Shown in pieces: positions 18,867 through 41,045 of a stretch of 64,000 nt of DNA. The notes under the pieces are model-generated. The model searched no databases, had not been told where the DNA came from, and was given only the letters and a program-made list of their open reading frames with translations. A program made the position numbers and the translations under genes. This DNA comes from Minisyncoccia bacterium (GTDB lineage: Bacteria; Patescibacteriota; Minisyncoccia; UBA6257; 2-01-FULL-56-20), in assembly GCA_050008535.1 (NCBI GenBank), contig JBEKML010000001.1, forward strand, positions 2,246 to 66,245. Reading direction: 5' to 3'. The stretch's first letter is position 1. Each line of letters opens with the position of its first letter.

Positions 18867-20635
18867 CACTGTTCGCAGTAGACGATTTCCGATTGATCCG
18901 GCGAATAGGTCGTTCGAAACGCGTGTGGGCACCGCACCGACTCATGAAAATGTGAAGTCGTATTGACATAGGCTCCGTTTGCTGATTTTGCTCCCTCGCA
19001 TTGGCACGCTCGATCATAAAACTTAATAGGATTCCTTTGGCGTAAGAGATAATAGTGGCGGCAATTATAGCACGACCGAGGAAGAGGCAGTTTCAGTTTC
19101 CGATAAAACGCCAATTCTTCTTTGGTGAACTTGAACGCGGTCGTGCACTGCTCATTGCAACTACCTCCATGTTCGCAGCCGATAGTTTCTTCCAGTGCAG
19201 AGTCCGAAACATCTTTTATGTCGTCCGGCAGATCCGCCGCGTTGTGTTGAATGTTGTAATCCTTTTTCTCGGAATCCCGCCATTTATATCCTCTTGCAAC
19301 TGCCTCCTTTTTAGTGAGCGGAAAATACTTTTGTGCGATAGTTTCATTGTAGGTGTAGGCGGACATCTCCGGAGGGAAAAACTCGCCATATTTATAGGTT
19401 TTTCCTTGTCTGTCGATATAGGGCATCGCGTTCATATGTGCCACGATTTTCGGCACGAGCCCTTCGTATTCCTCTTTCGTATATTGCTTGTTTAAAATAC
19501 AGTACTGTTTATTCCGAAGCGCCATGCAGCCGAAAAGGTCAGAGTTGCGTGCGAGAATGTGCCAGCAGTATTGGAGGTTAAATGCGTCGCTCCAGGTGTC
19601 GTAGCAAAATTTAACATCGTTCTGATTATTGCCCGACCCCATACACTCGTAAATTCTTAGGGCCTTCGCTCCCCACATGGTGAAGTCATAAGAATCCTTT
19701 GTTCCATTAATGAAAAGAAAATGGCAATATTTCGAATCTTCCGCACCGCCGACTTCATAGCTTGAAAACACATTCTTGGAATTGAATATATAGTCGCCGG
19801 ACACATCCGCGTTTTGTAATCCCTCCATAAACTTGCGGGGATAACCGATATGAACCTCCCTTGCCCGACGAGCGAGCTGCTGGATCGTTTTGTACGAACC
19901 CGTATTCCATTCGGCAATTTTATTGGAATATTCTTCTTTGGTGTACGGCTGATTGAAGATATAGTACTGCTTGTTGCGCAGATTGATGCACCCCAAACAA
20001 TTGGAACAGCCTCTGAGATTCTTGGAAAACCACACATCCACGCACTCATTACAGTTATTGGAAAAGAATGTCCGGAAACACTTGAATAAATTTGTGCTCA
20101 TGTAGCAAAACTCGCACAGATCCGAGATGTAGAGATCCAGGCAGTTCTTGCTCCTTTCCAAGACAGTAGAATAGGCGCAATCCTCGTCGTAGTCGGAGTT
20201 GAAAAGGAGGTAGCAATTTTTAAGATAGGAGCCGATGTTGCAATAATCACTGTTTACTAAAGTTGAATGCATCGTCTGCGGCCCAAAATCCGGCACGGAA
20301 CGAAAAAGTTCGTTGAGTTGTTCAAAGAAAGGACGGGAGAAATCTATTTCTTTGCCATACATCAGGGGATCCCACTTGTCAGACCACCAGCAGGGCTGAC
20401 AGTATACCGGCCTCCCTGCATTCTCTGGAAATATCGAGATAACCTGTTTATTGCACAAGTCACAACCACGCCGATGGAGGGAACGCTCATTAAGAAAAAC
20501 CATCCTCCTTTTAAGGCGGCAGTCCGGACACCAGGTCGGTGGCGGAACCTTGATATTTCCGTAGAACGCAAAATCTTCCTGTTCGATGACAAAAGACGAT
20601 TTGCAGTTCTGGCATGTTTTCGTCTGGGAATCCAT
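18845..20635 (-). CDS. Cysteine-rich repeat protein, paralog B (unknown function; putative metal or disulfide-rich). The start is taken at ATG 20635 (MDSQTKTCQNCKSSF...).
   Basis: 596 aa with >40 Cys. N-terminal zinc-ribbon-like CxNC...FxIExEDFxFYxxIKVPPPTxCPxCR repeats in mirrored form at the C-terminus (LPLPRSCYNCRHY). A central ~15-aa CxNCxxC repeat ladder is present. The last 12 residues are identical to paralog A. Confidence 0.6.
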   Translation of the reverse strand: MDSQTKTCQNCKSSFVIEQEDFAFYGNIKVPPPTWCPDCRLKRRMVFLNERSLHRRGCDLCNKQVISIFPENAGRPVYCQPCWWSDKWDPLMYGKEIDFSRPFFEQLNELFRSVPDFGPQTMHSTLVNSDYCNIGSYLKNCYLLFNSDYDEDCAYSTVLERSKNCLDLYISDLCEFCYMSTNLFKCFRTFFSNNCNECVDVWFSKNLRGCSNCLGCINLRNKQYYIFNQPYTKEEYSNKIAEWNTGSYKTIQQLARRAREVHIGYPRKFMEGLQNADVSGDYIFNSKNVFSSYEVGGAEDSKYCHFLFINGTKDSYDFTMWGAKALRIYECMGSGNNQNDVKFCYDTWSDAFNLQYCWHILARNSDLFGCMALRNKQYCILNKQYTKEEYEGLVPKIVAHMNAMPYIDRQGKTYKYGEFFPPEMSAYTYNETIAQKYFPLTKKEAVARGYKWRDSEKKDYNIQHNAADLPDDIKDVSDSALEETIGCEHGGSCNEQCTTAFKFTKEELAFYRKLKLPLPRSCYNCRHYYLLRQRNPIKFYDRACQCEGAKSANGAYVNTTSHFHESVRCPHAFRTTYSPDQSEIVYCEQCYQAEVA

Positions 20636-20648
20636 ATGCCTCTTTTTA

Positions 20649-22427
20649 TCACGCCACTTCCGCCTGGTAGCACTGTTCGCAATAGACAGTCCTGGGAAGG
20701 TCGGGAGTGTAGGGCGTTTCGAATTCATTGGGACAGTGGCCGCTGCCGTGAAAATGGCCCGCTGTATTTTTATAAACCGCATTTTCCGATCCCAAACCGG
20801 CGCATCCGCATTTCCCATGCCAAAGGTTCAACGGATTCCTTCGGCGCAATCTCTGGTAATGGCGACAGTTGGGGCATAATCGGGGCAAGGGCAGGTTCAT
20901 TCTCCGATAGAACTGCAGTTCCTGGGGAATGATGCGGAATGCGGTCGCGCATTGCTCGCTGCATTTTCCATCATGCTCGCACATTATGATTTCCTTCAAA
21001 ATGCCGTCATCCACTCCCCGTATGTTTTCGGGGAGCTTCTCCGGCAAAAGCGTTGCCGAGTAGTTCTTTTCCGCCAGATTTTTCCATAGGTATCCAGCCT
21101 TCTTTGCTTCGTCGCTCGTCAACGGAAAATATTCTTGTGCGATGGTTTCGTTGTAGGCAAAGGGGGAAATCTCAGTGGGCAGAAATTCGCCATATCCATA
21201 CTGTCTTCCTGCGCTACCAACGTAAGGATGGATCCGCACATACTCTTCGATCTTTGGAGCAAGCGTTTCATATTCTTCCTTGGAATACTGGGTGTTCAGA
21301 ATGCAATATGATTTTTGGCGAAGCCCTATGCATCCGAAACAATGCTCGCAACCGTGACAACTGTGGGAATAACGGCAATCCGAAGAAGCGTATACCGTTA
21401 TCGTCCCCAGATTATTTTGCCCCACGTTTGAATCAATGTTTTCATAACCAAAATTGTTTTTCCACTGTCCCATGCTGTCATATGACTCTTTCAGATCCGC
21501 GCTCCACCCTATAAACTTTGCATCCTCCACATTCCCCATCAGATCAAAACAAAAGCGGGCGTTCTTTGAGTTGTAGATGTTGTCTCCGGTGCAATTGACC
21601 GATGCTATTATATTCCCATACCGGCGTATTGCTTTATCAAAGATCTCATCCTGCACCCGCGCGGCGATGCGCGAGAGCGACGAACGATTTTCCAAATCGA
21701 ATTCCTTGAGCTTCTTTTCGTATTCTTCTTTTGAATACTGCTCGTTGAATAGGCAATGCGATTTGCCGACCAGGTTCGCGCATCCGAAGCAATCCGAGCA
21801 ATTGCGGCAGTTCAGAAGAAAATATGAATCCCGGCATGTTTCGCAGTTCGTGCAGAAAAGAAGATGGTAAGAGCCGGAACAGTTCACGCACTCATAGCAC
21901 AGTTCTGATTCGTGGAGGATATAGCAATCCTCGCTGTCCCGCGATTTCCATGCCCGGGCATAAGCGACGTTTTCACAAAAACCGGTTCCAAAAACCAAAT
22001 AGCAGTTTTTATTATCGCTGACAAAATTCGCATAATCACTGTTTACGGAATTGATATTGGAAAGCGCCTGAAGCGGAACCTTCCGGAACAGATCCCCGAA
22101 TTGTTCAAAAAATGGTTTTTCAAAATCATACTTCTGCCCGAAATCCAACGGATTCCATCGGTCCGACCACCAACACTCTCGGCAATAGGAAATTACCTTT
22201 GATTCCGGAGCATACATGGAAATGATGGATTTTCCGCATAGTCCGCACACGGCTTGGTATAAGCTCCTTTCGTTGCGCCACGTCATTCTCCGCACCATGC
22301 GGCACCGGGGGCAGAATGTCGGCGGCGGAACTTTTATCTTCGTATAGAAATCAAAATCTTCGGGTTCAATCGTGAATTGTGTTTTGCAATTCTTACATAC
22401 CCGATTTTCGGAATTCATGTCTCTCAT
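20649..22427 (-). CDS. Cysteine-rich repeat protein, paralog A (unknown function).
   Basis: 592 aa with the same architecture as paralog B, about 50-55% identity by eye, and an identical C-terminus (VYCEQCYQAEVA). The two 3'-terminal DNA segments are near-identical. Confidence 0.6.
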   Translation of the reverse strand: MRDMNSENRVCKNCKTQFTIEPEDFDFYTKIKVPPPTFCPRCRMVRRMTWRNERSLYQAVCGLCGKSIISMYAPESKVISYCRECWWSDRWNPLDFGQKYDFEKPFFEQFGDLFRKVPLQALSNINSVNSDYANFVSDNKNCYLVFGTGFCENVAYARAWKSRDSEDCYILHESELCYECVNCSGSYHLLFCTNCETCRDSYFLLNCRNCSDCFGCANLVGKSHCLFNEQYSKEEYEKKLKEFDLENRSSLSRIAARVQDEIFDKAIRRYGNIIASVNCTGDNIYNSKNARFCFDLMGNVEDAKFIGWSADLKESYDSMGQWKNNFGYENIDSNVGQNNLGTITVYASSDCRYSHSCHGCEHCFGCIGLRQKSYCILNTQYSKEEYETLAPKIEEYVRIHPYVGSAGRQYGYGEFLPTEISPFAYNETIAQEYFPLTSDEAKKAGYLWKNLAEKNYSATLLPEKLPENIRGVDDGILKEIIMCEHDGKCSEQCATAFRIIPQELQFYRRMNLPLPRLCPNCRHYQRLRRRNPLNLWHGKCGCAGLGSENAVYKNTAGHFHGSGHCPNEFETPYTPDLPRTVYCEQCYQAEVA

Positions 22428-22455: not shown

Positions 22456-23136
22456 CTAGACGCCGAGCACTTTCCTCGCGATGGCCCACACTTTTTCGTG
22501 GATCTCGTCCGGCGTGAGGAGAATACCCCCGGGAGCGCATTCTACCACCTGAAAATCCCCCGGAAAAAGCTCCGCAATTTCTAAATACACTTCTTCTGCC
22601 CGCTTCAGATCAGCAAGGTCGGGCTCGGGAAGATCGTGTTTTTTCCCGTCAAGATATCCGCGTCCGCTTCTTTTTGCGACCAGTTCATAAGAAACCTCCG
22701 CCGGCACACGGAGGACAATATTGAGATCCGGTTTGGGAATCCCGAAAATGCCATATTCAAGGTCGTAGAGCCACTTATAAAATTTCTCGCGCTCGTTTCT
22801 TGTTCCTATCTTCCCTCCCTGGTGCCCCATGTTGGACGCCACATAACGGTTCGCAATAATAGCCCGTCCTTCCGCGATCCACTGGGACAGCTTCAGCTTC
22901 ACATCAAAACGGTCGACGGCATAAAACACCGATGCTGCGTAGGGACCGACCTCGCCGCCGTACTTTCCGGTGAGATATTTCTGGACGAAATAAGAAGAGG
23001 GTTCGCCGTATTGCGGGAAGTCAAGCGTTCCCACTTTTGTACCCTCGGGAAGCGCAAGGACAAGCCGCTCAAACTGAACAGTTTTCCCCGAACCATCGGT
23101 TCCCTCAATAACGATGAATTTCCCGCGTTGGTCCAT
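22456..23136 (-). CDS. tmk: Thymidylate kinase of eukaryotic/archaeal-like type.
   Basis: P-loop FIVIEGTDGSGKTVQ, then LDFPQYGEPSSYFVQKYL and a DRY-like RYVASN motif, resembling human TMPK more than E. coli Tmk. Confidence 0.65.
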   Translation of the reverse strand: MDQRGKFIVIEGTDGSGKTVQFERLVLALPEGTKVGTLDFPQYGEPSSYFVQKYLTGKYGGEVGPYAASVFYAVDRFDVKLKLSQWIAEGRAIIANRYVASNMGHQGGKIGTRNEREKFYKWLYDLEYGIFGIPKPDLNIVLRVPAEVSYELVAKRSGRGYLDGKKHDLPEPDLADLKRAEEVYLEIAELFPGDFQVVECAPGGILLTPDEIHEKVWAIARKVLGV

Positions 23137-23226: not shown

Positions 23227-23652
23227 CTAATCCACCACCTCAATCCCCATATTCCTCGCGGTGCCGCGGATGATCCGCTCTGCCGCATCAAGATCGGTCG
23301 TATTCAGATCGGGAAGTTTTTTCTCCGCGATGGCGCGCACGTCGGCTTTGGTCACTTTCCCCACTTTTGTCGTAAGCGGGTTAGCGGAACCCTTCTCAAT
23401 GCCCGCGGCTTTTTTCAAAAGCGCTGCTGCAGGCGGAGTTTTTAAAATAAACCTGAAGCTGCGGTCTTCAAAAATCGTAATCTCGGCGGGAACGATATCC
23501 CCTTTCATATCCTTCGTCGCATCATTGAATTGCTTGCAGAACTCCTGCAAGTTGATGCCTTGTGGGCCGAGCACGGTGCCAACCGGCGGCGCCGGGTTCG
23601 CCGCGCCCGCCGGCAATTGAAGCTTAATGACTGTTTTTACTTTCTTGGCCAT
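23227..23652 (-). CDS. rplK: 50S ribosomal protein L11.
   Basis: [43 protein letters not shown]... is the canonical L11; 141 aa. Confidence 0.95.
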
Positions 23653-24092: not shown

Positions 24093-24599
<507 letters not shown>

Positions 24600-24729: not shown

Positions 24730-25152
24730 TCACTGCGAGATTTCCTCAATCTTTTTCTCCAATGCCTCGTTCGAAAGCGGAGACGGAACGGGCGGCCGGG
24801 CTTCAACGGGCGGCCTCCCTCTTTTCGGTAAAGGAAAAGGCGGCGCGGTGAGCGGCTGTCTTTCTGCTTGCGGAGGCGCGACGAGCACGAGGAACCTGAT
24901 TATTTCCTCGCGCATCCCGAGATCGCGTTCAATTTGCTTCGCGTCCTCGCCGGTCATCCTCACGACATAAGACATGAACATCGCTTCGGTCATGCCTTTT
25001 ATCTTATAGGCAAGCGCGAGTTTTTTTATGCGGGGCTCCGATACCGTTTCGCCGTTGTGCTGGCGGACCAATTCAAGCACGCGCGCCGCATCGCTCTCGC
25101 TTTTCAAAAGCAGTGCGAGCTCGTATATTTTCTTGTCTTTTTCTTCGTCCAT
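24730..25152 (-). CDS. rpsF: 30S ribosomal protein S6.
   Basis: KIYELALLLKSE...IKKLALAYKIKG..EAMFMSYV matches the S6 fold consensus. It lies upstream of ssb in the classic rpsF-ssb arrangement. Confidence 0.8.
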   Translation of the reverse strand: MDEEKDKKIYELALLLKSESDAARVLELVRQHNGETVSEPRIKKLALAYKIKGMTEAMFMSYVVRMTGEDAKQIERDLGMREEIIRFLVLVAPPQAERQPLTAPPFPLPKRGRPPVEARPPVPSPLSNEALEKKIEEISQ

Positions 25153-25173
25153 AGCGTGGGTATTATAATCGAA

Positions 25174-28100
25174 TTATTCCTTAGCGGCAAGGGTGGTCTT
25201 TTCTGCATCAGCTTCAAGTTCATGGAGCACCTCGCGGCCCGATTCCCTATCCCCCGCAGGGATGAGACGGCCGATGATCACGTTTTCTTTGAGCCCGCGG
25301 AGTTTGTCCACTTTTGCCTCAATTGCGGCCTTCACGAGCACGCGCGCGGTATCCTGGAACGATGCCGCAGAAAGGAAGCTCTCAGCCGAAAGCGCGATGC
25401 GCGTGATCCCAAGGAGCACCTCGTCCGCTTTCGCAGGCTGCCCGCCCTGTTTTTTGATCTCGCGGTTCACCTCCAAAAACTTCGCCTTCTCGACGATCTC
25501 GCCCATCACAAAGTCCGGTGCATCGCCCCCGTCGCGGATCTTCACGCGCGAGAACATCTGCCGCACGATCATTTCAATGTGTTTATTGTTGATCGAGGCG
25601 CCCTCCGAGAGATAGATCTTTTGCACTTCGTTCACGATATAACGGGCCACCGCAAGCGCGCCCCTGTGCTCGTATAACTCATGGATATCCAGGTTCCCCT
25701 CGGAAAGCAGGTCGCCCTTCCGGATCTTGTCCCCCGCTTTCGCATAAAGCACGGTGCTGCGCGGGACGGCGATCTCCTGGGCCTTTGTTTTCTTGTTCTC
25801 GGAAATAAGACGGAGCACTTTCTGGGAACCTCTTTCCTCCACTTTCTCCACCGATCCATCAAAAGGCGCGAGCACGGCGCGGCCCTTCGGCGAGCGCATC
25901 TCGAAAATTTCTTCCACGCGCGGCAAACCGTGCGTAATGTCCGCGCCCGCCACGCCTCCCGCGTGGAACGTGCGCATCGTAAGCTGCGTTCCCGGTTCCC
26001 CGATGGACTGCGCCGCAAGCACTCCTGCCGCAGCGCCGATCTTCACCGGTTCGTTTACGCCAAGATCATATCCGTAACACTTGGCGCAAATACCGTAAAA
26101 TGTCCTGCAGGTGATGGGCGACCGCACGGTAACCGCATCCAGCTTGGATTGTTCGATAAGTTCCGCCGCCGCTTTGTCTATGATCTCTCCGGCCCGCGCA
26201 ACAACTTTGTGCCCGATCCGGATATCATCAAGCGCCGCGCGGGAGAACAAACGGGAAGAAAAGCTCTGGTTGAATTCCTTGCCGTCGGCGCGCAAAATCT
26301 CGATCCCCTCTTTCGCCCTGCAATCTTCTTCGCGGACCGTGAGGTCCTGGGCCACATCCACCAAGCGCCGCGTCAGGTAGCCGGCCTGCGCCGTCTTCAA
26401 AGCGGTGTCGGTGGTTCCTTTCCGCGCGCCGTGCGTAGAAATGAAGTATTCCAAAACCGAGAGCCCTTCTTTAAGCGACGACCGCACGGGGAGCTCGATG
26501 GTTTCTCCTTTCGGGTTCTGCACGAGCCCTTTCATGCCCATCATCTGGATCGGCTGGGACCATGAACCGCGCGAGCCGGAATCCACCATCTGATAGATAG
26601 CATTGTCCACCGACAAAACGACCGAGACGAGCTTCGCAAGCTCGCCCTTCGCCCTGTCCCACACACTGATTACGCGCGCCTTGCGCTCAGAGGACGTAAG
26701 AAGCCCCTCGCGGTATTGTTCCCGTATCAAACCCACCTCTTCGTCGGCCTTCCGCATGATCTCGCCTTTTTCGGTAGGAATAATAAGGTCGGCCATTGCC
26801 CATGTGATGCCCGAGACCGTTGCCATCTCAAAGCCAAGCAGTTTCACGCCGTCCAAAATCTCGCGCGCCGTATCGAGCCCGTGCACGTCAAGGATCTTCT
26901 CGATGATCTTTTTGAGTTTTTTGCTTGTCACCGTCTCGTTCACGAACTCAACTGTCCCGTGAAGTACTTCATTGAAGATCAAGCGGCCGAGCGTGGTATC
27001 GATGCCCTTCACGCGGATCGCCGAATGGAGCGTGACCACGTTATTTTCGTAGGCAAGAAGCGCCTCTTCGACGCCGAGCATCGGTTTTGCGGCATCCCCT
27101 TTCGAGGACGGGCGGGTGAGATAATAAACGCCGAGCACCATATCTTTTGTGGGAGCGGCAATAAGCTCGCCGGTTGCGGGCTTCAAAAGCCCCTTCCCTG
27201 CCGCCATGATCTCTACGGCTTCCTTTTGCGCAAAATCGGAAAGCGGAAGATGAACCGCCATCTGGTCGCCGTCAAAGTCGGCATTGAACGCGGAACAGAC
27301 GAGCGCGGGGATCTTTATCGCAAGCCCCTCAACAAGAAGCGGCTTGAAGGCCTGCACGGAGAGCCGGTGCAGGGTCGGCGCGCGGTTCAAAAGCACGCGT
27401 TTGCCCTTAATGATCTCTTCCAGAATTCCCAACACTTCCGGCGTATGTTCTTCAATATAGCGCGACGCGCTCCGGATGTTGTGCGCAAGGCCGCGCTTGA
27501 TGATCTCGCCAATCACGAACGGGCGGAAAAGCTCCAGCGCCATCCGCTTCGGCAAACCACATTCGTCAATTTTTAAATTGGGACCCACGACAATGACCGA
27601 CCGGCCGGAATAATCCACGCGCTTCCCGAGCAAGTTCTGGCGGAAACGGCCCTGCTTCCCTTTCAACATGTCGGCCAGGGAACGCAAAGGACGCCGCTGC
27701 GCCGAGAGCTGCTGGGTGCCGAAGCGGGCGGAATTATCAATTAGGGCGTCCACCGCTTCTTGAAGCATGCGCTTCTCGTTGCGGATAATGACGTCCGGCG
27801 CCTTGATCTCCAGGAGCTTTTTCAAGCGGTTGTTGCGGTTGATCACGCGGCGGTAAAGGTCGTTCAGGTCGGAAGTTGCGTACCGTCCGCCGTCCAGGGC
27901 CACCATGGGCCGAAGGTCCGGCGGGAGGACCGGAAGCACCGTCATCACCATCCATTCCGGACGGCTGCCGTTCCGGATCATTGATTTGAGCATCTTCAGG
28001 CGCCGCAGGAGCTTGCTTTGCGCAAGAGGGTCCTTTGCGTTTTCCAGTTGCGCCTCAACGCCTTGCACTTCCTTCCGAAGGTCCAATTTTTCCAAAATTT

Positions 28101-31100
28101 GTTTTACGGCCTCGGCGCCGCTCCCCGCCTTGAAAATACTCCCGAACCTCCGCGAGAGCGAGAAATATTCGTTCTCCGAAAGGATCTGGCCAACGTGAAG
28201 ATTTTCCAAATATTCTTTCGTCGTGTCGGCGGCCTCCAAGATCTCTCCTTTTACCATCTTATCCTTATTGCCGACGGTCTTCAGCTTGCCCTTGAGCTCG
28301 CGCTCAAGGTCCGCAAGCGCAACTTTGCGGTTTTCCTCTTTTATCTCCGTGATGATGTAGGCCGAGTAATAAATGACGCGCTCAAGCTTCTGCGAAGAAA
28401 CGTCAAGGGCGAGCGCAAGGCGCGAAGGGATGCTCTTCAAGAACCAGATATGCGAGACAGGAGCGGCAAGCGCGATGTGGCCGATGCGCTCGCGCCGCAC
28501 CGCCGCGCGCGTGACCTCCACGCCGCACTTATCGCAGATCACGCCCTTGTAGCGGATCCGGCGATACTTGCCGCAATAGCACTCATAGTCCTTCGTAGGG
28601 CCGAAGATGCGTTCGGAGAACAAGCCGTCCTTCTCGGGGCGCTGCGTCCGATAATTGATGGTCTCCGGTTTTATCACCTCCCCATGGGACCATTTCAAAA
28701 TATCTTCCGACGACGCGACGCTGATCTTCAATGCGGAGAAATCATCTTTACGATCGGTTTCTGTCTCATACAGCGGCTGGATATTGAATCCAAGCGATTT
28801 AAGTTCGTTCACAAGCACATTGAAGGACGCCGGAATGTTCGGCTCCTTGATCTGCTCGCTGCGTATGATGGACTCGTACGCCGCTGCGCGGCCCAGGACG
28901 TCGTCGGACTTGATCGTGAGCATTTCCTGGAGCGTGTGGCGCGCGCCGTAGCCTTCAAGGGCCCACACCTCCATTTCGCCGAACCGTTGGCCGCCGAACT
29001 GCGCCTTCCCACCCAGCGGCTGCTGGGTGATCAAAGAGTACGGACCGATGGAACGCATGTGCGCCTTGTCTTCCACAAGATGGTTCAGCTTCATCATGTA
29101 CACCTGCCCCACGGTCACCCGGCTTTCAAAAGGTTCGCCGGTGCGGCCGTCAAAGAGCTTCACTTTGCCGTCCTCGGGCAGTCCCGCCTTCGCGAGTTCC
29201 TCGCGGATCTCCGCTTCCGTCGCCGAGTCCAGTCCCGGCGTGATCGCGCGGTATCCCAACTTTGAAGCCGCCCACCCCAAGTGGGTCTCCAGGATCTGGC
29301 CGAGGTTCATGCGCGAGATGACGCCCAACGGGTTCAAAACGATGTCCACCGGCGTGCCGTCCTCCAAATAGGGCATGTCTTCCGCCGCGCGCACCTGCGA
29401 GATGACGCCCTTGTTCCCGTGGCGCCCGGCAAGCTTGTCGCCCGACTGGACCTTCCGGAGTTCCGCGATCTCCACCTGAATGCGGCGGATGATCCCCGGC
29501 TCCAGCTTGTCGCCGCGCTCCCGGTCAAAGATCTTCACGTTCACCACGCGGCCCAGTTTCCCGTGCGGAAGGATAAGCGAGGTATCTTTCACGTCCCGCG
29601 CCTTCTCGCCGAAGATCGCACGGAGCAGGCGCTCTTCCGACGTCAGTTCCGATTCGCCCTTCGGCGAAATTTTCCCGACCAAAATGTCGCCGGCTTTGAC
29701 CTCGGCGCCGATGCGGATGATCCCCTCCTCGTCAAGATTTTTCAATTTGTCTTCCGAAACATTGGGGATATCGTAGGTGGTGACTTCCGGCCCTAATTTC
29801 GTGTCGCGTACGTCGCAATCATAATTATCAATATGGATGGAGGTGAAAAGGTCGTCGCGGACCACGCGTTCGGAAAGAACGATGGCATCCTCAAAATTCG
29901 CGCCTTCCCACGAGACGAAGGCAACAAGAAGATTCTGGCCCAGGGCGAGCACTCCGTGATCGATCGACGGACCGTCAGCGAGAATCTCTCCTTTTGCGAC
30001 CGCCTGCCCCGTAACGACGAGCGGTTTCTGCGAAATGCACGTGAATTGGTTGGAGCGTTTGAACTTTTCAAGAACGTAGTTTTTGGTCACCCTGCCATAC
30101 TTCACCTTAAGATGGTTCCCGTCGGCCTCAAGCACGGTCCCTTTGTCCTCGGCGACGATCACATAGCCCGAATCAAGCGCCACCCGCTCTTCCTCCCCCG
30201 TCGAAACATAGGGGGCGTCGGGCTTCACGGACACCACGGCCTGCCGTTGCATGTTCGAACCCATGAGCGCGCGGTTTGCATCGTCGTGCTGGAGGAAGGG
30301 AATAAGCGCGGTCGCAACCGAGATGAACTCGTTCGGAGCGACGTCGATAAGGTCTATTTCTTCCGGCGTGCAGGTTCCCGGCTCGCCTTTAATGCGCGCT
30401 TCCACGATCGGTCCTTTCAAGCGGTCTCCCTCGCGCGGGGTACCGGCATGGGTGATCTTGTATTTTTCTTCTTCCGAAGCATCGAACCAAACGATCTCGT
30501 TCGTAACGCGGCCGTCTTTTACCTTTGCATACGGCGCCTCCAAAAATCCAAAATCGTTGATGCGCGTAAAGCTTGCAAGATAATTGATAAGGCCTATGTT
30601 CGATCCCTCCGGCGTTTGGATCGGGCAGATACGGCCGTAGTGCGAGCGATGGACGTCGCGCACCTCAAAGCTCGCGCGTTCGCGCGTGAGGCCGCCGGGG
30701 CCGAGCGCCGAAATCCTCCGCTTATGCTCCAATTCCGCAAGCGGGTTCACCTGGTCCATGAACTGCGAAAGCTGCGAAGAAGCGAAAAACTCCTTGATGA
30801 CCGCGGCGATCGGACGGAAGTTCACGAGCTGCGACGGCATCAAATGATCTTTATCTTCCGTGGACATCCGGTCCTGGATGATCCTCCGCAAGCGCGCGAG
30901 CCCGATCCGGAGGCGGCCCTGCAAAAGCTCTCCCACGGTCTTCAGGCGGCGGTTGCCCAAGTGGTCGATGTCATCCTCTTCGGCCTCGGCATTGTTATTC
31001 AAAGAGATGATCTCTTTTACGATCCCAATGAGGTCCTCGGCATCCAAAAGTTTGTTGTTCTTCTTGCGATCCAGATCCAGGCGCTGGTTCATCTTGTAGC

Positions 31101-31905
31101 GGCCGACCTCCGAGAGGTCATAGCGATCAGGGCGATGGAACATCGCGTCAATGAGGCTTTTTGCCGTTTCCGCGCCCGCAGGGTCGCCCGGCCGCAAGCG
31201 GCGGTAGATCTCGATATACGACTCGGTCGTGTCTTTTGCGACGTCTTTTTTGAACGTCGCTTCGATGAATTTCACCGGGCCATTATCCATCTTCTCGAAT
31301 GCGGCCCCGATCTTTTCGTTGTCCAACCCGAATATACGAAGGATGTCCGTCACCGGCACTTTCCTCCGGCGGTCGATCTTCACGCCGATTTCGCCGTTCA
31401 CGTCGGTTTCGAATTCAAGCCAGGCGCCGCGCGAAGGAATGATCTTCGCGCCGAAAAGCTGCCGGCCGCGATAGGGCACCGCCGTGAAATACACGCCGGC
31501 GGAACGCACGAGCTGTGAAACCACCACGCGCTCAACGCCGTTCACGATGAACGTTCCGCGGCTTGTCATGATCGGGAAATCGCCGAAGTACACCTCTTGC
31601 TCTTCCGTCCTCCCCGTCCGCTTGTTCACCAGTTTCAAAGTGCACCGCAAGGGTGCTTCATACGTCGCTTCTTTGTACCGCGCCGTCGCCTCGTCATATT
31701 TCGGTTCGTCGAAACGATAGTTGGTAAAGGAAAGTTCGAACTCCTTGCCCGTGTGATCGCGGACCGGCGAAATTTCCACAAGGAGCTCCTGCAGCCCTTT
31801 ACCCAAAAACCACTGATACGACTTCAGTTGCGCTTCATTCAAATTGAATGGCGCAATAAGGGATTTCGATTTCGAAAAGTCTTTTATTTTGGAAAATTTT
31901 GCCAT
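25174..31905 (-). CDS. rpoBC: DNA-directed RNA polymerase beta-beta' fusion (rpoB and rpoC in one continuous frame). The start is taken at ATG 31905 ([10 protein letters not shown]...).
   Basis: N-terminal half is RpoB (rifampicin-region and GEMEVWALE-like motifs). The RpoB C-terminal end ...[24 protein letters not shown] runs without a stop into the RpoC N-terminus ...[40 protein letters not shown] (zinc finger), through NADFDGDQM to the C-terminus. Total 2243 aa. Confidence 0.85.
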
Positions 31906-31995: not shown

Positions 31996-32970
31996 TTACC
32001 TTACTAGGTATTTAACTGTATTTTGGTGTTGCTCGTCAAGAGTCTTGGCAAAAATAGTTTTTCCCGTCTTGGGGTCGCTTAGATAGAACCAGTAAGGCGA
32101 ACTTGTGGGCGTGAGAGCTGCCTGAATAGCCGAAATGCCAGGATTTCCGATAGGACCAGGGGGGAGCCCCTTATACAAGTAGGTATTGTAGGGCGAATCG
32201 ATCTTTAAGTCAATAGTACCACAACCCGGCTCGGAAAGGGGGGTACCGATCTGCATCGCGTAACAAACCGTCGCGTCCACCTGAAGCGGCATGCCCGCCC
32301 GGAGACGTTTCCATAAAATCCCGGCGACGATTCTCCGGTCGTCCGAATTTGATACCTCCTTCTCAAGGATGGACGCGAGGATCAGATCGTTCGGGGCATC
32401 CGCCCCGTCCTGCGCCATGATCGGCGCTGCCTTTGCGTCAAAATTATCGAGCATCGCCTTGACCACGTCGCCTATGGGGGAATTGGTATAGAAGCGATAA
32501 GTGTCGGGAAACAATTTTCCTTCCAAATTTCCGGCATCATGAAAATTGACGAGATCGCCCCGCCGGATCACAAGCGCTTTGGCAAGGATCGCGTCAATCT
32601 GATAGAGATTCGCCCCTTCGGGAATCGTGATCGTCGTTTCTCCGGCGGCATTCTTCGAAAGTTCGCCCAACACCGCCCAGGGCGACATCGTCGCGTTCAA
32701 CCGATAAAGTCCCGGCTGCAGATGAAACGCCGACCCATTCAGAAGGGAAAGCGCCTCGGTGGCGAACGACGACCGTACGATGCCCGCGTGCGCGAGGCCC
32801 GTAATAATTTCGTGGAAGCCTTCCCCTTGTTTTATTTCAAAGATCGCAGGCGCCGCATCCGCACGGGCACCGATTGGCGTAAGACCATAGAGAAAAAAAC
32901 CGACCGCTCCAGCAAGAAGAAGCATGGCGCACGAACCAACGATGAATTTCCTTGTAAAAAACTGTGGCAT
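31996..32970 (-). CDS. mltG: Endolytic murein transglycosylase MltG (YceG family).
   Basis: N-terminal TM; the conserved YceG signature region ...TYLYKGLPPGPIGNPGISAIQAAL...; 324 aa. Confidence 0.75.
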   Translation of the reverse strand: MPQFFTRKFIVGSCAMLLLAGAVGFFLYGLTPIGARADAAPAIFEIKQGEGFHEIITGLAHAGIVRSSFATEALSLLNGSAFHLQPGLYRLNATMSPWAVLGELSKNAAGETTITIPEGANLYQIDAILAKALVIRRGDLVNFHDAGNLEGKLFPDTYRFYTNSPIGDVVKAMLDNFDAKAAPIMAQDGADAPNDLILASILEKEVSNSDDRRIVAGILWKRLRAGMPLQVDATVCYAMQIGTPLSEPGCGTIDLKIDSPYNTYLYKGLPPGPIGNPGISAIQAALTPTSSPYWFYLSDPKTGKTIFAKTLDEQHQNTVKYLVR

Positions 32971-32976
32971 GGCGCT

Positions 32977-34023
32977 CTATGACCGTTTCCGGATGGAATT
33001 TACAATAGCTAAAAGGAAAAAATTGGCAAGCATGCTTGATCCGCCGTAGCTCACAAAGGGGAACGTGACGCCGACGACCGGCAAAAGTCCCGTCGTGGAA
33101 CCAGCGTTCAGAAAGAACTGGACTCCCAGCGCCATTGCGACGCCAAGGCAGATGAACTTTTCGAAATTTTCGTCGGCAAGCGCGCCGATCCTCAAGATCT
33201 GGAGCACGAGAAAGAAGAACGCCGCAATAACGACGAGCCCGCCTATTATCCCCCATTCCTCAATGATTGCGGCAAGAATAAAATCCTCCGACGGTTCCGA
33301 AAGAAATCCAAGTTGGGTTTCCGTCCCCTGCCCGTATCCCTTGCCGAAAAGCCCCGCCGACCCGATCGCGATCTTTGCCTGTGTTGCACTGTAATTGATC
33401 CCCAAGACATTCTCCTGCGGATAAAGAAATCCTACGATCCGCGCCCGGTGATAATCCTTGAGAACATATGTCCAAACGAGCCCGGTCGCAAGAACAAGAA
33501 CAATGACCGCCGCAAGTACCCTCTTCGGCGGAAGCCCCGAAAGAAGGAGGAAGCCGAACCAGATGCAAAAGAAGATGACCGCCGATCCAAGGTCGGGCAA
33601 TTGCACCGCGATCGCCGCGGGAACCACAAAAAAGAAAAAGGAGGTGATGATGTTCGTGAGCCGCGCAACGGCAAGATGACGCCGGCTGAAATAATTGGCG
33701 TATAAAAAAATGATCGCCACCTTCATGAGTTCCACCGGCTGAAGCGTGAAGGGTCCGAACACGAGCCAGCTTCTCGTATTCCGAATGACCGGCCCCTTGA
33801 AATACGCGAGGAGCATCAGGGCAAGCACCAAAAAATAGAACCCCCAAATGACCCAGCGCGCATTGAACACCGACCGCCAGTCAACATAGAGAAAAAGCAC
33901 CACGAGGCTGACGCCGAGCGCCACCCAGAGCAGCTGGAGATAAAAAAGGTGCAGCGAGACCGCCGAAAGCAAAATGAGCCCGGCCGCGACCAAGATACCA
34001 ACCGGAAGAAAGAGGATAGGCAT
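32977..34023 (-). CDS. rodA: SEDS-family peptidoglycan glycosyltransferase (RodA/FtsW). The start is taken at ATG 34023 (MPILFLPVGIL...).
   Basis: Ten TM helices and conserved SEDS motifs (…GAKSWL-like RNTRSWLVFGPFTLQPVELMK, C-terminal PFVSYGGSSMLANF). Confidence 0.75.
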   Translation of the reverse strand: MPILFLPVGILVAAGLILLSAVSLHLFYLQLLWVALGVSLVVLFLYVDWRSVFNARWVIWGFYFLVLALMLLAYFKGPVIRNTRSWLVFGPFTLQPVELMKVAIIFLYANYFSRRHLAVARLTNIITSFFFFVVPAAIAVQLPDLGSAVIFFCIWFGFLLLSGLPPKRVLAAVIVLVLATGLVWTYVLKDYHRARIVGFLYPQENVLGINYSATQAKIAIGSAGLFGKGYGQGTETQLGFLSEPSEDFILAAIIEEWGIIGGLVVIAAFFFLVLQILRIGALADENFEKFICLGVAMALGVQFFLNAGSTTGLLPVVGVTFPFVSYGGSSMLANFFLLAIVNSIRKRS

Positions 34024-34036
34024 AAGAAAAAGCGTA

Positions 34037-34816
34037 TTACGACCGGAGCGCGTAGGCAAAGACCTTCGTAAGCGACGGGACGACGCTCGGCACCGTTGGA
34101 TACGCCACGGAAAAATCCTCGGTTTGGTTCGGCGCGATCGCGTCAAGCATGGTTTGTGAAGCACCGACCGGCTTGCCGTTCTTATCGTAGAAAATAGCGA
34201 CGATAAATATATTGTTGAATGCCGCAATATCGCCGTCGGCAACCTGTCCCGTCACCGTAATGCTGCTTGACGAAATCGTGGTGCCCGTGATCGGCAAAGG
34301 AGCGCCGCGCGAATTCCCCAATTGCGGCACAAGGCCCATTGCGGAGCCGGTCGTCCATGTGGTGCTTCCTATCACAAGTGCGGCATGATCCACCGTGGTT
34401 GTAACGTTCACATTAGGGATCAGGAGGTACTTCACTTCGCTTGCATAAATGAAGGATTGGCCGGGGACCGATCCAATAAGCGCCCCCGAGGCATCATAGA
34501 GATCGAATGAATAACCAAAGCCCGGAGAAGCGAATCCTGCATTGTGATTTTCCACCTCCGCGAGGAAGGTATAATGCCCGGGACTTGAAACAAATGTCTG
34601 AACGTTTCCTACGGTAATACTAAGTGTTTCCGATGGAACGCACACCTTGGCGCACGGTCCGCCGCAGTCCACGCCCGCTTCTCCCTGGTTTTGCACATTG
34701 TCAAAGCACGACGGCGCCCGATAAAAAAACAAAAAATAGATGCCCAGGGCGATACCGACGAGCACAACAAGGTAAAGCACGCCGTAGATCATCTGCTTCA
34801 TCCACCGTGGGGTCAT
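34037..34816 (-). CDS. Hypothetical membrane-anchored extracytoplasmic protein.
   Basis: N-terminal TM (MIYGVLYLVVLVGIALGIYFLFF), a short Cys cluster (CFDNV...CGGPCAKVC), then a Ser/Thr/Gly-rich beta-type domain. No recognisable family. Confidence 0.4.
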   Translation of the reverse strand: MTPRWMKQMIYGVLYLVVLVGIALGIYFLFFYRAPSCFDNVQNQGEAGVDCGGPCAKVCVPSETLSITVGNVQTFVSSPGHYTFLAEVENHNAGFASPGFGYSFDLYDASGALIGSVPGQSFIYASEVKYLLIPNVNVTTTVDHAALVIGSTTWTTGSAMGLVPQLGNSRGAPLPITGTTISSSSITVTGQVADGDIAAFNNIFIVAIFYDKNGKPVGASQTMLDAIAPNQTEDFSVAYPTVPSVVPSLTKVFAYALRS

Positions 34817-35740: not shown

Positions 35741-35861
35741 TGTCGGCACATCCTACTTTCCCCGCAGGCGAACCCGCAAGTATCATCGGATCGGGGCGCT
35801 TTCACTTCTCTGTTCGGAATGGGAAGAGGTGGGACACGCCCGAATAAAGCACCGACATCAA
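35738..35861 (-). rRNA. rrf: 5S ribosomal RNA.
   Basis: Reverse complement contains CCCATTCCGAACAGAGAAGTGAAAGCGCC... (5S loop B/helix III consensus), and the terminal helix I pairs gatgtcggtgc with gcaccgacatc. About 124 nt. Confidence 0.85.
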
Positions 35862-36333: not shown

Positions 36334-37086
36334 CAATATATTATTTCACGCCATTGCTGGCGGTTTGGACTATACCACCATCTCGATCCACACCGAGATG
36401 ACCGACGTTTTATGGAATTTTTCTTCCATCCAATCCCTTAGATTGAGTCTCTACGGGGTCAATGTATATAGCTTTCGCTTCTTTGAATAATTCAATTCTC
36501 TGAAACGATCTACGGTCTTCATCAGCACGTGAAAATCGCCTTGATTTTTCACATTCGCTTTTTTATCCAAGACTTCCAGCATAAGCATCGCTTGATCCTT
36601 TTTCATAATGAGGTACGGCTGAACTATATCAAGAAATGCGCGGATAGCGCCTTCTCTCGCAATAGTATATTCAACCATGCCGTCATTTCTCTCTCGGAAA
36701 TAACCGAGGTTGACGAAGGAACAAACTTGCTTGAACTTTTTCAGTTCTTTTTTGGATTGGAACAACACAATATACGGTGCTACTTGAAATCCGTACCGAT
36801 ATTCGGCATTAGGTTTCAATCGCACGTAAATGCTTCCATCTCCATCTAGAAATCCTGCAATATATGCTTTTTGTGCTGACGAAAGACTTTTCATACACGA
36901 CTTCCCTCGGTATTATCCTATAATCACCCACTCATGCAAAATATCTTTTAATATATTTTTAATGAGCATTGTGGTATGTCCACAGGTCATGGACATTAGG
37001 ACTTCACCGATATGAGTCGATTTATGCACCCTAACGTTGCCGCTAGGGGCCGCCGTGTTCGATTATCGTTAAGGGTTCTTTGGTTG
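36334..37086 (-). mobile_element. Group I intron in 23S rRNA at the E. coli L2593-equivalent (I-CreI-type) site, carrying a LAGLIDADG homing endonuclease ORF.
   Basis: The flanking exons rejoin to GGGTTCAGACCGT|CGTGAGACAG, matching E. coli GGGTTTAGAACGTCGTGAGACAG exactly. Exon 1 ends in U, the intron ends in G, and the ORF lies in a peripheral loop. Confidence 0.75.
36451..36894 (-). CDS. LAGLIDADG homing endonuclease (single-motif, I-CreI-like) encoded in the 23S group I intron.
   Basis: MKSLSSAQKAYIAGFLDGDGSIYVRLKPN... has a single LAGLIDADG motif (IAGFLDGDGSI) near the N-terminus; 147 aa. Confidence 0.85.
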   Translation of the reverse strand: MKSLSSAQKAYIAGFLDGDGSIYVRLKPNAEYRYGFQVAPYIVLFQSKKELKKFKQVCSFVNLGYFRERNDGMVEYTIAREGAIRAFLDIVQPYLIMKKDQAMLMLEVLDKKANVKNQGDFHVLMKTVDRFRELNYSKKRKLYTLTP

Positions 37087-38493
37087 ACGGTCTGAACCCA
37101 GCTCACGTGCCACTTTAATTGGCGAACAGCCAAACGCTTGGGAGCTTCTTCACCCCCGCGCTGTGGCGAGCCGACATCGAGGTGCCGAGCGAAGTCGTCG
37201 ATAGGAACTCTCGGACTTCACCAGCCTGTTATCCCCGGAGTAGCTTTTATCCGGTGTCTCCGGCCTTTCTATCAAGAGTTTAATGAATCGTAAGAAACAA
37301 TAAACGTAGCCGTCGGGTCACTAACTTCTGCTTTCGCACCTGCTCGACTTGTAGGTCTCGCAGTCAAGCCGGCTTTTGCGTTTGCACGTCCTGCCCGATT
37401 TCCATCCGGGCTAAGCCGACCTTAATAAACTCCTCCGTTACTTTTTTGGAGGAAAACGCCCCATTTAAACTGCCTACCAAGCACTGTCTCAGCCGGGTTT
37501 ATGCTTGCGCACTTCCCAGCCGGTTAGTCTTTAAAATCTTAAAGATGGCTGTTTCATTGTCGGATCCACCGCCCCCGAGAGGGCGGCTTCAAATCCTCAC
37601 CACTACGCTACGCATCAAGATTCTAAAGACAATACCAAGCTGCAGTAAAGCTTCCGGGGTCTTTTCGTCCCGCTGCAGGTATCCCGCGTCTTCACGGGAA
37701 TCGCATTTTCACCGAGCTTGCCTCTGAGACAGTTCTCCAGTCGTTACGAGCACCGCACCTTGCGGCACGGCACCCCCAACCTTGACCTTCTCGCATCGGT
37801 CAGGCGTCACCCCCTATACATCCTCTTGCGAGTTAGCAGGGAGCTGTGTTTTTGGTAAACAGTCGCCAGAGAGACTTTCGCTGCGGCCCCTCAATAAAGA
37901 AGGGCAGGCCATATTGCTAACTTACGGCCGCTTTTTTGCCGAGTTCCTTAGAGGCAAATCACTCGTTCCCCTTGGGCTTCTCGCCCTATCTACCAGTGTC
38001 GGTTTACGGTACGGATCCTCTGTAACGTTACCGTCGTGCTTTTCTCGGAAGGCTCTTCACGCGTGTTAGTGAGGTAAATTCCTCACCTTCCGCCAATCCT
38101 CGCTTGAACTTCGGACCAGCGATACCAAACCAATAAGGCATACGCACTTATTTCCTTCGCACACGACGGATAATCACAAAGGAGGGCTGGAATATTAACC
38201 AGCATTCCATCAGCTGCGGCTTTCGCCATCGCCTTAGGACCGCCTAACCCGTGGTTGATTGCCAGTGCCACGGAAACCTTGGATTTTCGGGGTTCCAATT
38301 TCTCATTGGGATTGTGGTTACTCATGCCAACATTTTCTCTTCCGGCCGCTCCAAACGCCCTCGCGGGTCGATCTTCGCTGCAGACCGGAATGCTCTCCTA
38401 CCGCGCATGGACTTCATAGAGGAGGCCAAGCGAACATATGCTCGCCTCGCACTCCGATAATTATTGCTATTCGTGTTGACCGCCCAGGAGGGG

Positions 38494-38570
38494 TGGTCGG
38501 GCCGGTGGGATTTGAACCCACGACTTCCGAGGCCCGAGCTCGGCGCGCTACCAGGCTGCGCCACGGCCCG
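38494..38570 (-). tRNA. tRNA-Pro(CGG) embedded inside the 23S helix-45 IVS, with CCA encoded (38494-38496).
   Basis: CGGGCCG-TG-GCGC-AGCCTGGTA-GCGC-G-CCGAG-CTCGGGC-CTCGG-AAGTC-GTGGG-TTCAAAT-CCCAC-CGGCCCG-A-CCA. The D-arm GGCGCAGCCTGGTAGCGC is identical to E. coli tRNA-Pro, and G72/A73 plus G35G36 are the Pro identity set. Confidence 0.65.
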
Positions 38571-39540: not shown

Positions 39541-39577
<37 letters not shown>

Positions 39578-41037: not shown

Positions 41038-41045
41038 CAAGAGAA

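What the first reader, a model, noticed from the sequence alone, without database searches (positions are those of the whole stretch)
25174..31905. rpoB and rpoC are fused into one 2243-codon gene
The RpoB C-terminal consensus (...[17 protein letters not shown]) continues in frame through a 30-residue linker ([35 protein letters not shown]) into the RpoC N-terminal zinc finger ([36 protein letters not shown]). There is no stop or frameshift across the junction. Beta-beta' fusions are documented in Helicobacter and Wolbachia but are otherwise rare. Here the gene is also not preceded by rplL. Instead rpsF-ssb lies downstream and mltG-rodA upstream.
Basis: seen in the sequence. Interest (0 to 1): 0.55.

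Follow-up and report, generated by a model that had tools for sequence, protein, structure and literature searches.

The report
Fused rpoB-rpoC gene in Parcubacteria
The two largest subunits of the bacterial RNA polymerase are encoded here as one 250-kDa protein; this is a real, inherited trait of a whole clade of ultra-small Parcubacteria (candidate phyla radiation), and it arose separately from the known fusions in Helicobacter and Wolbachia.

Summary
Window 25174-31905 (- strand) is one uninterrupted ORF of 2243 codons. It carries every beta domain (aa 22-1043) and every beta' domain (aa 1055-2145).

It is not an assembly artefact:
- At least 115 full-length homologues (71-100% identity) from independent JGI, ENA, NCBI and Logan assemblies carry the same fusion.
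- They form a clade with 100% bootstrap support (names include Liptonbacteria, Ryanbacteria and Paceibacterota).
- The sister clade is unfused (Harrisonbacteria and others). It has rpoB, a stop codon, a 15-70 nt spacer and then rpoC, in the same rodA-mltG ... rpsF-ssb neighbourhood.

- The linker is 13 residues (Q1043-D1055), not about 30. The rest of the quoted stretch is the ordinary conserved beta' N-terminus.
- Fusions are rare but occur in about 20 other scattered lineages, each with an unrelated linker.

The protein passes NCBI's rpoB and rpoC models. It fails both curated fused models (Helicobacter type and Wolbachia type), so it is an independent fusion.

I found no paper describing it, although the sequences are public. 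It is a new member of a known kind and of modest interest. No protein-level evidence is available.

The parts
25174..31905 (-). rpoBC: single ORF of 2243 codons plus a TAA stop (25174-25176). Predicted protein 249.9 kDa.
   Evidence: An identical protein (P0001) is present in JGI and ENA assemblies.
28780..31905 (-). Beta module, aa 1-1042 (Rpb2 domains 1-7). Contains GEMEVWA at aa 976 and ends at ...[10 protein letters not shown].
   Evidence: Pfam. NCBIfam rpoB NF001616 scores 1507.8 against a cutoff of 896, over aa 7-1043. PDB beta chains align up to aa 1043-1052.
28741..28779 (-). Linker, aa 1043-1055 ([13 protein letters not shown]), 13 residues. Anchor residues P1044, Y1046, R1052 and D1054 are conserved in 83-91% of homologues; the other positions vary.
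   Evidence: Length is 13 aa in 108 of 115 homologues. Its column entropy is higher than in 91% of all 13-aa windows of the protein.
25177..28740 (-). Beta' module, aa 1056-2243 (Rpb1 domains 1-5). Begins at the conserved F1056[21 protein letters not shown].
   Evidence: Pfam. NCBIfam rpoC TIGR02386 scores 1521.9 against a cutoff of 963.5, over aa 1059-2218. PDB beta' chains align from aa 1052-1056.
28525..28581 (-). Beta' N-terminal zinc finger, [19 protein letters not shown] (aa 1109-1127).
   Evidence: Motif search. The four cysteines are invariant in alignment A2, apart from one sequence with S at the second position.
27265..27285 (-). Catalytic Mg-binding motif NADFDGD (aa 1541-1547).
31996..32970 (-). 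mltG/YceG, immediately upstream (90-nt gap to rpoBC).
   Evidence: Pfam YceG, E = 4e-71. Same position in the relatives L081, L004 and L008.
32977..34242 (-). rodA/ftsW family gene upstream of mltG. The true start is probably internal, because homologues are 348 aa.
   Evidence: Pfam FTSW_RODA_SPOVE, E = 5.5e-79.
24730..25152 (-). rpsF, 21 nt downstream of the rpoBC stop codon. A sigma-70-like promoter match (TTGCCG-17-TATAAT, 25190..25162) lies in the last codons of rpoBC.
   Evidence: Pfam Ribosomal_S6; promoter scan.
24093..24590 (-). ssb.
   Evidence: Pfam SSB, E = 9e-37.
23227..23652 (-). rplK (L11), further downstream. It is followed by tmk (22456-23136), not by rplA.
   Evidence: Pfam. 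Same order in L081 and L004.

Best explanation
This is a genuine chromosomal rpoB-rpoC fusion, inherited by a whole clade. It encodes the catalytic core of the bacterial RNA polymerase as one 2243-residue (250-kDa) beta-beta' polypeptide.

Shown here:
- The ORF is continuous, and both modules are complete with their catalytic and zinc motifs.
- The fusion is shared by a monophyletic group of Parcubacteria (Patescibacteria) that includes MAGs labelled Liptonbacteria, Ryanbacteria, Paceibacterota and Minisyncoccia.
- The sister group has separate rpoB and rpoC genes in the same rodA-mltG-[rpoB rpoC]-rpsF-ssb neighbourhood. In one member only a TAA stop, five in-frame codons and an ATG separate them.
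- So the fusion arose once, in place, by loss of the rpoB stop codon and the rpoC start codon.
- In the unfused sisters the beta C-terminal tail is charged and varies from 5 to 35 aa. In the fused clade it is replaced by a linker held at 13 aa.

Inferred:
- The protein is made and used as one uncleaved chain. The 13-aa tether would join the beta C-terminus to the beta' N-terminus, which lie next to each other in the clamp of assembled RNAP. This is established knowledge: engineered E. coli and M. tuberculosis beta-beta' fusions are active, and the Helicobacter enzyme is naturally fused.
- The consequences would be obligatory 1:1 stoichiometry and assembly of the two large subunits within one molecule.
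- Whether this is adaptive or a neutral change that became fixed is unknown.
For: ORF and modules:
- The ORF is continuous and the domain set is complete. NADFDGD, GEMEVWA and the zinc finger are present.
- GC and GC3 are the same in both halves, and the window holds no second copy.

Recurrence:
- 120 clusters at 90% identity, 71-100% identical to the query, are all fused. They come from four independent data sources.
- A relative with 89% identity occurs on 10 contigs with the same gene order.
- The linker is 13 aa in 108 of 115 homologues.

Phylogeny:
- In a neighbour-joining tree of the beta module, the fused clade has 100% bootstrap support, the unfused sister clade 97.5%, and the two together 100%.
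- The 120 nearest relatives of the unfused L007 beta are all 1042-1089 aa.

Origin in place:
- L007 junction: TAA, 15 in-frame nt, ATG. L008 has a 70-nt spacer.
- Unfused L008 and fused L004 share the same flanking genes.

Independence from known fusions:
- The protein passes the rpoB and rpoC equivalog models and fails both curated fused models.
- Other fused lineages fall elsewhere in the tree and have unrelated linkers.

No separate beta':
- The only Met codon between aa 1000 and 1300 is M1217, beyond the zinc finger.

Literature:
- Engineered fusions are functional (10.1101/2021.11.05.467461; 10.64898/2026.04.06.716786).
- Natural fusions are reported in Helicobacteraceae and Wolbachia (PMC7483510).
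Against: - There are no protein-level data. All evidence comes from metagenome assemblies and from gene calls made on them.
- Proteolytic cleavage in the linker is not excluded. Four linker positions are conserved (P1044, Y1046, R1052, D1054), which could mark either a structural contact or a processing site.
- The AlphaFold model of the junction fragment was too poor (mean pLDDT 44) to say whether the linker is ordered, or whether 13 aa span the gap. That point rests on prior knowledge of RNAP structures.
- The trees are distance-based neighbour-joining trees built on one module only.
- No selective benefit is demonstrated.
Confidence: 0.88

Rival explanations
1. Assembly or sequencing artefact: a spurious indel or base error removed the rpoB stop codon, or put rpoC in frame, in this assembly only.
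For: The window comes from an assembly whose reads cannot be inspected. Noisy assemblies of this gene do exist: L003, a long-read MAG, shows at least 12 frame switches along it.
Against: The same in-frame junction occurs in at least 115 full-length homologues from independent JGI, ENA, NCBI and Logan assemblies, with many substitutions but a fixed 13-aa length. The fused sequences form a clade with 100% bootstrap support. The identical protein was assembled independently (P0001).
Confidence: 0.01
2. The gene is fused, but the cell still ends up with separate beta and beta'. This could happen by proteolytic cleavage at the conserved linker (P-x-Y...R-K-D), or by internal translation initiation near the junction.
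For: Four of the 13 linker positions are conserved in 83-91% of homologues, more than a purely passive tether needs. An in-frame TTG codon (L1059) lies just after the junction.
Against: There is no ATG between the junction and M1217, which lies beyond the zinc finger. No Shine-Dalgarno-like sequence precedes the TTG. From my own memory of Zakharova, Severinov and colleagues, not verified here: the Helicobacter fusion protein is found intact in purified RNAP. The strict constraint on linker length fits a tether that spans a fixed distance better than a cleavage site.
Confidence: 0.08
3. The fusion is an adaptive compensation specific to ultra-small symbionts. Tethering would replace a lost assembly aid, such as the omega subunit or chaperones, or would buffer subunit stoichiometry when expression is very low. 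On this view it is not a neutral accident.
For: The fusion has been retained across a deep clade (down to 71% identity) with a constrained linker. Other fused lineages found here include reduced-genome symbionts and parasites: Wolbachia and Mycoplasma wenyonii.
Against: The unfused sister clade consists of equally reduced Parcubacteria with the same gene neighbourhood. Fusions also occur in MAGs labelled Anaerolineaceae and Deltaproteobacteria, which are not known as reduced symbionts. Presence or absence of rpoZ could not be examined with a 64-kb window.
Confidence: 0.12

Closest known systems
Helicobacteraceae fused RpoBC (NCBIfam NF007172 / PRK09603, profile of 2890 positions)
   Same: One ORF encodes beta followed by beta', joined from the C-terminus of beta to the N-terminus of beta'. 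All catalytic modules are kept. It is a trait of a clade, not of a single strain (PMC7483510, citing Zakharova et al. 1999 and Lane & Darst 2010).
   Different: Independent origin. The window protein scores 2198.7 against a curated cutoff of 5372. It is about 650 residues shorter because it lacks the lineage-specific insertions. Its linker is different, and the organism belongs to the Parcubacteria group, not the epsilonproteobacteria.
Wolbachia/Rickettsiales fused RpoBC (NCBIfam NF011417 / PRK14844; cluster of P0124, 2842 aa)
   Same: A natural single-chain beta-beta' in a bacterium with a reduced genome that depends on a host.
   Different: The score is 2069.3 against a cutoff of 4632. The linker is unrelated and longer (...[34 protein letters not shown]...). 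It falls elsewhere among beta sequences.
Engineered beta-beta' fusions (E. coli; M. tuberculosis expression plasmid pMP61)
   Same: The same head-to-tail topology. They show that a tethered beta-beta' assembles into active RNAP (10.1101/2021.11.05.467461, its reference 21; 10.64898/2026.04.06.716786).
   Different: They are artificial, with designed linkers and no evolutionary history.
Unfused rpoB and rpoC of sister Parcubacteria (loci L007 and L008; Harrisonbacteria and others)
   Same: They are the closest sequences outside the fused clade. Beta has the same compact size (about 1045-1090 aa), and the rodA-mltG ... rpsF-ssb neighbourhood is the same.
   Different: rpoB ends in a stop codon after a variable charged tail of 5-35 aa. 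A spacer of 15-70 nt and an ATG precede rpoC.
Other sporadic fused beta-beta' proteins in public data (Mycoplasma wenyonii WP_014849752.1; Anaerolineaceae MBQ6520178.1; Deltaproteobacteria MDR1577725.1; the unnamed clusters of P0138, P0163 and P0164)
   Same: The same architecture. Together they show that this fusion is a recurrent evolutionary outcome.
   Different: Each has its own linker length and sequence and its own position in the tree. Several are singletons that could be artefacts. Of those examined, none is represented by as many independent assemblies as the Parcubacteria clade.

Membership tests
Bacterial RNAP beta subunit (rpoB equivalog, NCBIfam NF001616 / TIGR02013) | Whole-protein score above the curated cutoff, with full-length coverage of the model | tested here: met
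   NF001616 scores 1507.8 against a cutoff of 896, aa 7-1043 on profile positions 3-1093 of 1096. TIGR02013 scores 1491.9 against 801. All seven Rpb2 Pfam domains are present.
Bacterial RNAP beta' subunit (rpoC equivalog, TIGR02386) | Whole-protein score above the curated cutoff, with full-length coverage; catalytic NADFDGD motif and N-terminal zinc finger present | tested here: met
   The score is 1521.9 against a cutoff of 963.5, aa 1059-2218 on profile positions 2-1139 of 1147. NADFDGD is at aa 1541 and the C-x-C...C-x2-C finger at aa 1109-1127.
Natural beta-beta' fusion (general kind) | rpoB and rpoC are joined in one reading frame, with no stop codon, frameshift or internal start between them | tested here: met
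Natural beta-beta' fusion (general kind) | The fusion is heritable: it is present in related genomes assembled independently | tested here: met
   At least 115 full-length fused homologues, forming a clade with 100% bootstrap support.
Natural beta-beta' fusion (general kind) | A single polypeptide of about 250 kDa is present in the enzyme | not testable with these tools
   This needs proteomics, a gel or a purified enzyme. The PDB sequence search returned no chain that matches both halves.
Helicobacter-type RpoBC (NF007172) | Score at or above the curated equivalog cutoff of 5372 bits | tested here: not met
   2198.7 bits.
Wolbachia-type RpoBC (NF011417) | Score at or above the curated equivalog cutoff of 4632 bits | tested here: not met
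   2069.3 bits.
Canonical rplKAJL-rpoBC operon organisation | rplJ-rplL lie immediately upstream of rpoB, and rpsL-rpsG-fusA often lie downstream of rpoC | tested here: not met
   Upstream are rodA-mltG and downstream rpsF-ssb. For contrast, in Woesebacteria locus L021 the two ORFs after rpoC begin like ribosomal proteins S12 and S7; I judged this by eye from their N-terminal sequences and did not run Pfam on them.

The most novel reading that the evidence does not exclude
The fusion is a single, ancient rare genomic change that defines a major subclade of Parcubacteria (Liptonbacteria, Ryanbacteria and relatives, as opposed to Harrisonbacteria and relatives). It would be kept by selection because a length-constrained 13-residue tether takes over part of RNAP core assembly or stoichiometry control in these ultra-small symbionts, for example by compensating for a missing omega subunit or chaperone. 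If so, this would be the most widely represented natural single-chain RNAP core among those examined here, and a clean phylogenetic marker for the radiation.
Probability: 0.15. Interest if true: 0.5.

Novelty: new member of a known kind. Interest (0 to 1): 0.3.

Why it matters
Natural beta-beta' fusions are a textbook curiosity known from Helicobacteraceae and Wolbachia. This finding adds a third, independent lineage that is more widely sampled: more than 100 clusters at 90% identity, spanning at least two candidate phyla. It also comes with an unusually clear before-and-after comparison, because the unfused sister clade has the same gene neighbourhood.

Practical uses:
- It is a simple rare-genomic-change marker for the internal phylogeny of Parcubacteria.
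- It warns annotators. These 2,250-residue proteins are currently labelled 'subunit beta' or 'subunit beta'', no NCBIfam fused model fits them, and marker-gene pipelines that expect separate rpoB and rpoC may mis-score such genomes.
- It offers a compact natural single-chain RNAP core (250 kDa, few insertions) that could be attractive for heterologous expression and structural work.

It does not change how transcription is understood.

Tried and rejected
1. Structure prediction. I ran AlphaFold2 on a 206-aa junction fragment with a 20-sequence alignment (A2). Mean pLDDT was 44 and pTM 0.25. This is useless for judging whether the linker is ordered or how far it must span, so I did not pass it to fold search.

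2. Genome scan. The scan of genome contigs with the junction alignment was swamped by Bacteroidota loci reported as matching query residues 1-125. ORF inspection showed these are ordinary unfused rpoB/rpoC pairs that happen to lie in the same frame with stop codons between them. Only L001-L006 are truly fused. The coverage figure from that tool is therefore not evidence of fusion.

3. Literature. Seven full-text searches and targeted reading of papers on Parcubacteria and Minisyncoccus found no description of an rpoBC fusion in the candidate phyla radiation. The primary papers on the Helicobacter fusion (PMC93870) and on RNAP sequence evolution (PMC2813377) are not held. Details about them rest on the citation in PMC7483510 and on my memory.

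4. Motif search. Simple regular expressions failed to locate junctions in distant fused proteins. I replaced them with local alignment to anchor peptides.

5. Explanations considered and rejected:
- An alternative genetic code or stop-codon readthrough. There is no stop codon at all in the junction.
- A chimeric assembly of two organisms. GC and GC3 are identical in both halves, and homologues with 92% identity are collinear.
- The longer ORF starting at the GTG at 31953. Homologues do not have the extra 16 residues.
- L003 as a counterexample. It is a noisy long-read assembly.

6. Ribosomal genes. It is a weak negative.
Full report
OBSERVATION

The window holds one ORF on the minus strand from 31953 (GTG) or 31905 (ATG) down to 25174. 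Translated from the ATG, it gives 2243 residues and a TAA stop, with no internal stop.

Pfam places all beta domains (Rpb2_1, 2, 3, 45, 6 and 7; aa 22-1043) in front of all beta' domains (Rpb1_1 to Rpb1_5; aa 1055-2145). The beta signature GEMEVWA (aa 976), the beta' zinc finger (aa 1109-1127) and the catalytic NADFDGD (aa 1541) are all present. The predicted mass is 249.9 kDa.

The two halves have the same GC (0.572 and 0.571) and GC3 (0.74 and 0.72). The window contains no second rpoB or rpoC. The ATG at 31905 is the likely start, because homologues begin at the equivalent position.

WHERE THE JUNCTION REALLY IS

Solved beta' chains align with the window protein from aa 1052-1056 onwards. 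E. coli beta' residue 13 corresponds to aa 1052, and residues 4-7 of Gram-positive and actinobacterial beta' correspond to aa 1055-1056. The rpoB models and beta chains end at aa 1043-1052.

[22 protein letters not shown] is therefore the ordinary conserved N-terminus of beta'. The true linker is the 13 residues Q1043-D1055 (window 28741-28779).

NOT AN ARTEFACT

A search of 5.8 billion proteins with the whole protein returned 120 clusters at 90% identity, 71-100% identical to the query. Every one carries both the beta and the beta' domains: 115 are full length (2240-2322 aa) and five are cut by a contig end. They come from JGI, ENA, NCBI and Logan assemblies. One is an identical protein from another assembly.

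All the junctions I could read are in frame. The linker is exactly 13 aa in 108 of 115 full-length homologues. It is among the most variable 10% of 13-aa windows in the protein, but P1044, Y1046, R1052 and D1054 are conserved at 83-91%. A relative with 89% identity was found on 10 contigs with the same flanking genes.

One apparent exception is L003. It is a long-read assembly with at least 12 frame switches along the gene, but its junction is intact.

ORIGIN

Source names place the fused proteins in the Parcubacteria group of the Patescibacteria (the candidate phyla radiation): Candidatus Liptonbacteria, Ryanbacteria, Paceibacterota and Minisyncoccia.

The genome scan also recovered close relatives that are not fused:
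- L007 has a beta of 1071 aa, then TAA, five in-frame codons and the ATG of rpoC.
- L008 has a 70-nt spacer.

The 120 nearest relatives of the L007 beta are all unfused, at 1042-1089 aa, with names such as Harrisonbacteria, Paceibacterota and Parcubacteria.

In a neighbour-joining tree of the beta module (65 sequences, 1027 columns, 200 bootstraps):
- the fused sequences form a clade in 100% of replicates;
- the unfused sister group forms a clade in 97.5%;
- the two together form a clade in 100%, nested among other unfused Parcubacteria.

Unfused L008 has rodA-mltG-x-rpoB-rpoC-rpsF-ssb. Fused L004 has rodA-mltG-rpoBC-rpsF-ssb-rplK. The window has the same order as L004.

The move away from rplJL is therefore older than the fusion. 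The fusion happened once and in place, by loss of the rpoB stop codon and the rpoC start codon.

In the unfused sisters, beta ends in a charged tail of very variable length, 5-35 aa. After the fusion this region became a linker of fixed length. That is what would be expected if it now has to span a fixed distance.

HOW IT MOST LIKELY WORKS

Shown: a complete beta and a complete beta' are encoded in one frame. No ATG could start a separate beta' before M1217, which lies beyond the zinc finger. No Shine-Dalgarno-like sequence lies at the junction.

Inferred: the product is an uncleaved single chain that folds into the normal RNAP core. The tether would join the C-terminus of beta to the N-terminus of beta', which are neighbours in the clamp. 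This rests on established knowledge:
- rpoB and rpoC are 'occasionally fused' in nature, and a synthetic fusion is functional (10.1101/2021.11.05.467461).
- M. tuberculosis RNAP is routinely produced from a fused rpoBC construct (10.64898/2026.04.06.716786).
- The genes are fused in Helicobacteraceae and Wolbachia (PMC7483510).

The expected consequences are strict 1:1 stoichiometry and assembly of the two large subunits within one molecule. Whether that is selected or neutral is open.

My attempt to model the junction failed (mean pLDDT 44). The PDB sequence search returned no chain that matches both halves, so there is no solved fused enzyme to compare with.

COMPARISON WITH WHAT IS KNOWN

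NCBIfam has two curated equivalog models for fused beta/beta': NF007172 (2890 positions, Helicobacter type) and NF011417 (2839 positions, Wolbachia type). The window protein scores 2198.7 and 2069.3, far below their cutoffs of 5372 and 4632. It passes the plain rpoB and rpoC equivalogs. It works like those fusions but is a member of neither family.

I also ran an exhaustive HMMER search of 1.84 billion cluster representatives (clusters at 50% identity), using a 600-aa query centred on the junction. All 150 listed hits are strong (E-values of 4e-99 or lower). Only one of them (P0037) is both a fused protein and a close match (89% identity), so the 50%-identity cluster it represents probably holds most or all of the fused Parcubacteria clade; I infer this from identity levels and did not check cluster membership.

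About 20 other fused representatives were found. They include Wolbachia/Rickettsiales, Mycoplasma wenyonii, an Anaerolineaceae MAG, a Deltaproteobacteria MAG and several unnamed clusters. Each has a different linker and sits among unfused relatives elsewhere in the tree.

Fusion of these two genes is thus rare but recurrent.

NOVELTY AND VERDICT

Seven full-text searches and several targeted readings found no description of this fusion in the candidate phyla radiation. The library is incomplete, and the sequences themselves are public, annotated merely as 'subunit beta' or 'subunit beta''.

I rate it a new member of a known kind: real, clade-wide and neatly documented, but not surprising to a specialist.

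Interest is 0.3. Confidence is about 0.9 that the fusion is genuine and inherited. Confidence that it functions as an uncleaved chain is lower, about 0.75, pending protein data.

Noticed in passing
window 38420-38830 (insertion) and 38497-38570 (tRNA), - strand, inside the 23S rRNA gene at 37010-40080: The 23S rRNA gene carries an insertion of about 410 nt at the tip of a hairpin, between Rfam model positions 1218 and 1219. By my memory this is the classic helix-45 site for intervening sequences. Inside the insertion, on the same strand, is a full-scoring tRNA-Pro(CGG) (65 bits in Rfam, also called by ARAGORN). There is also a second stretch that looks like a T-arm plus acceptor stem ending in CCA. 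A tRNA nested in an rRNA insertion suggests that RNase P and RNase Z could cut the 23S rRNA into fragments. The relative L081 has a still larger 23S gene (3917 nt) but no nested tRNA.
   Followed up: partly
window 36451-36894 (-), between the 3' end of the 23S gene (37010) and the 5S gene (35741-35856): A 147-aa ORF with a LAGLIDADG homing-endonuclease domain (E = 3e-11) sits in the unusually long spacer (about 1.15 kb) between the 23S and 5S genes. No 16S gene lies next to the 23S gene in the window.
   Followed up: no
window 17541-22427: This block has lower GC (0.475-0.49, against about 0.55 around it). It lies between gatB (16087-17499) and tmk (22456-23136). In the relative L081, tmk is directly followed by gatB. 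The block encodes an HD-domain protein (17541-18866, +) and two large overlapping ORFs of unknown function (657 aa and 592 aa, -), each with only a weak treble-clef zinc-finger hit. It may be an inserted island.
   Followed up: no
window 23227-23652 (rplK) and the whole window: rplK stands alone. It is followed by tmk rather than rplA. No rplA, rplJ, rplL or nusG was detectable in the 64 kb with E. coli queries (a weak test). The order ssb-small ORF-rplK-tmk is conserved in L081.
   Followed up: partly
window 38494-38570 (-) and 40967-41038 (+): There are two tRNA-Pro genes with the same CGG anticodon within 2.5 kb, one inside the 23S gene and one outside it on the opposite strand.
   Followed up: no
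proteins P0138, P0163 and P0164 (from; members listed): Three unnamed clusters of fused beta-beta' proteins from metagenomes are well populated (6, 21 and 12 members; 2412-2485 aa). They have very short junctions and diverged N-terminal beta' motifs, for example ...LDLDIAQDGSQASVRLAGPETIRAWSAGEI.... They group together in the tree. They look like yet another independent lineage with a fused RNAP, of unknown taxonomy.
   Followed up: partly
locus L003 (OY970354.1, an 829-kb chromosome-level MAG), 3024-9761: The rpoBC homologue in this long-read assembly needs at least 12 frame switches to be read through. This is typical indel noise and would make the essential gene look like a pseudogene in annotation.
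   Followed up: yes
window about 28200-28740 (rpoBC aa 1056-1234): The N-terminal beta' region is about 45 residues longer than in E. coli. Window aa 1056-1234 correspond to E. coli beta' residues 17-152. The Pfam Rpb1_1 match spans 371 residues for a 312-position profile. The extra stretch is charged and looks helical ([23 protein letters not shown]...), which suggests a lineage-specific insertion.
   Followed up: no
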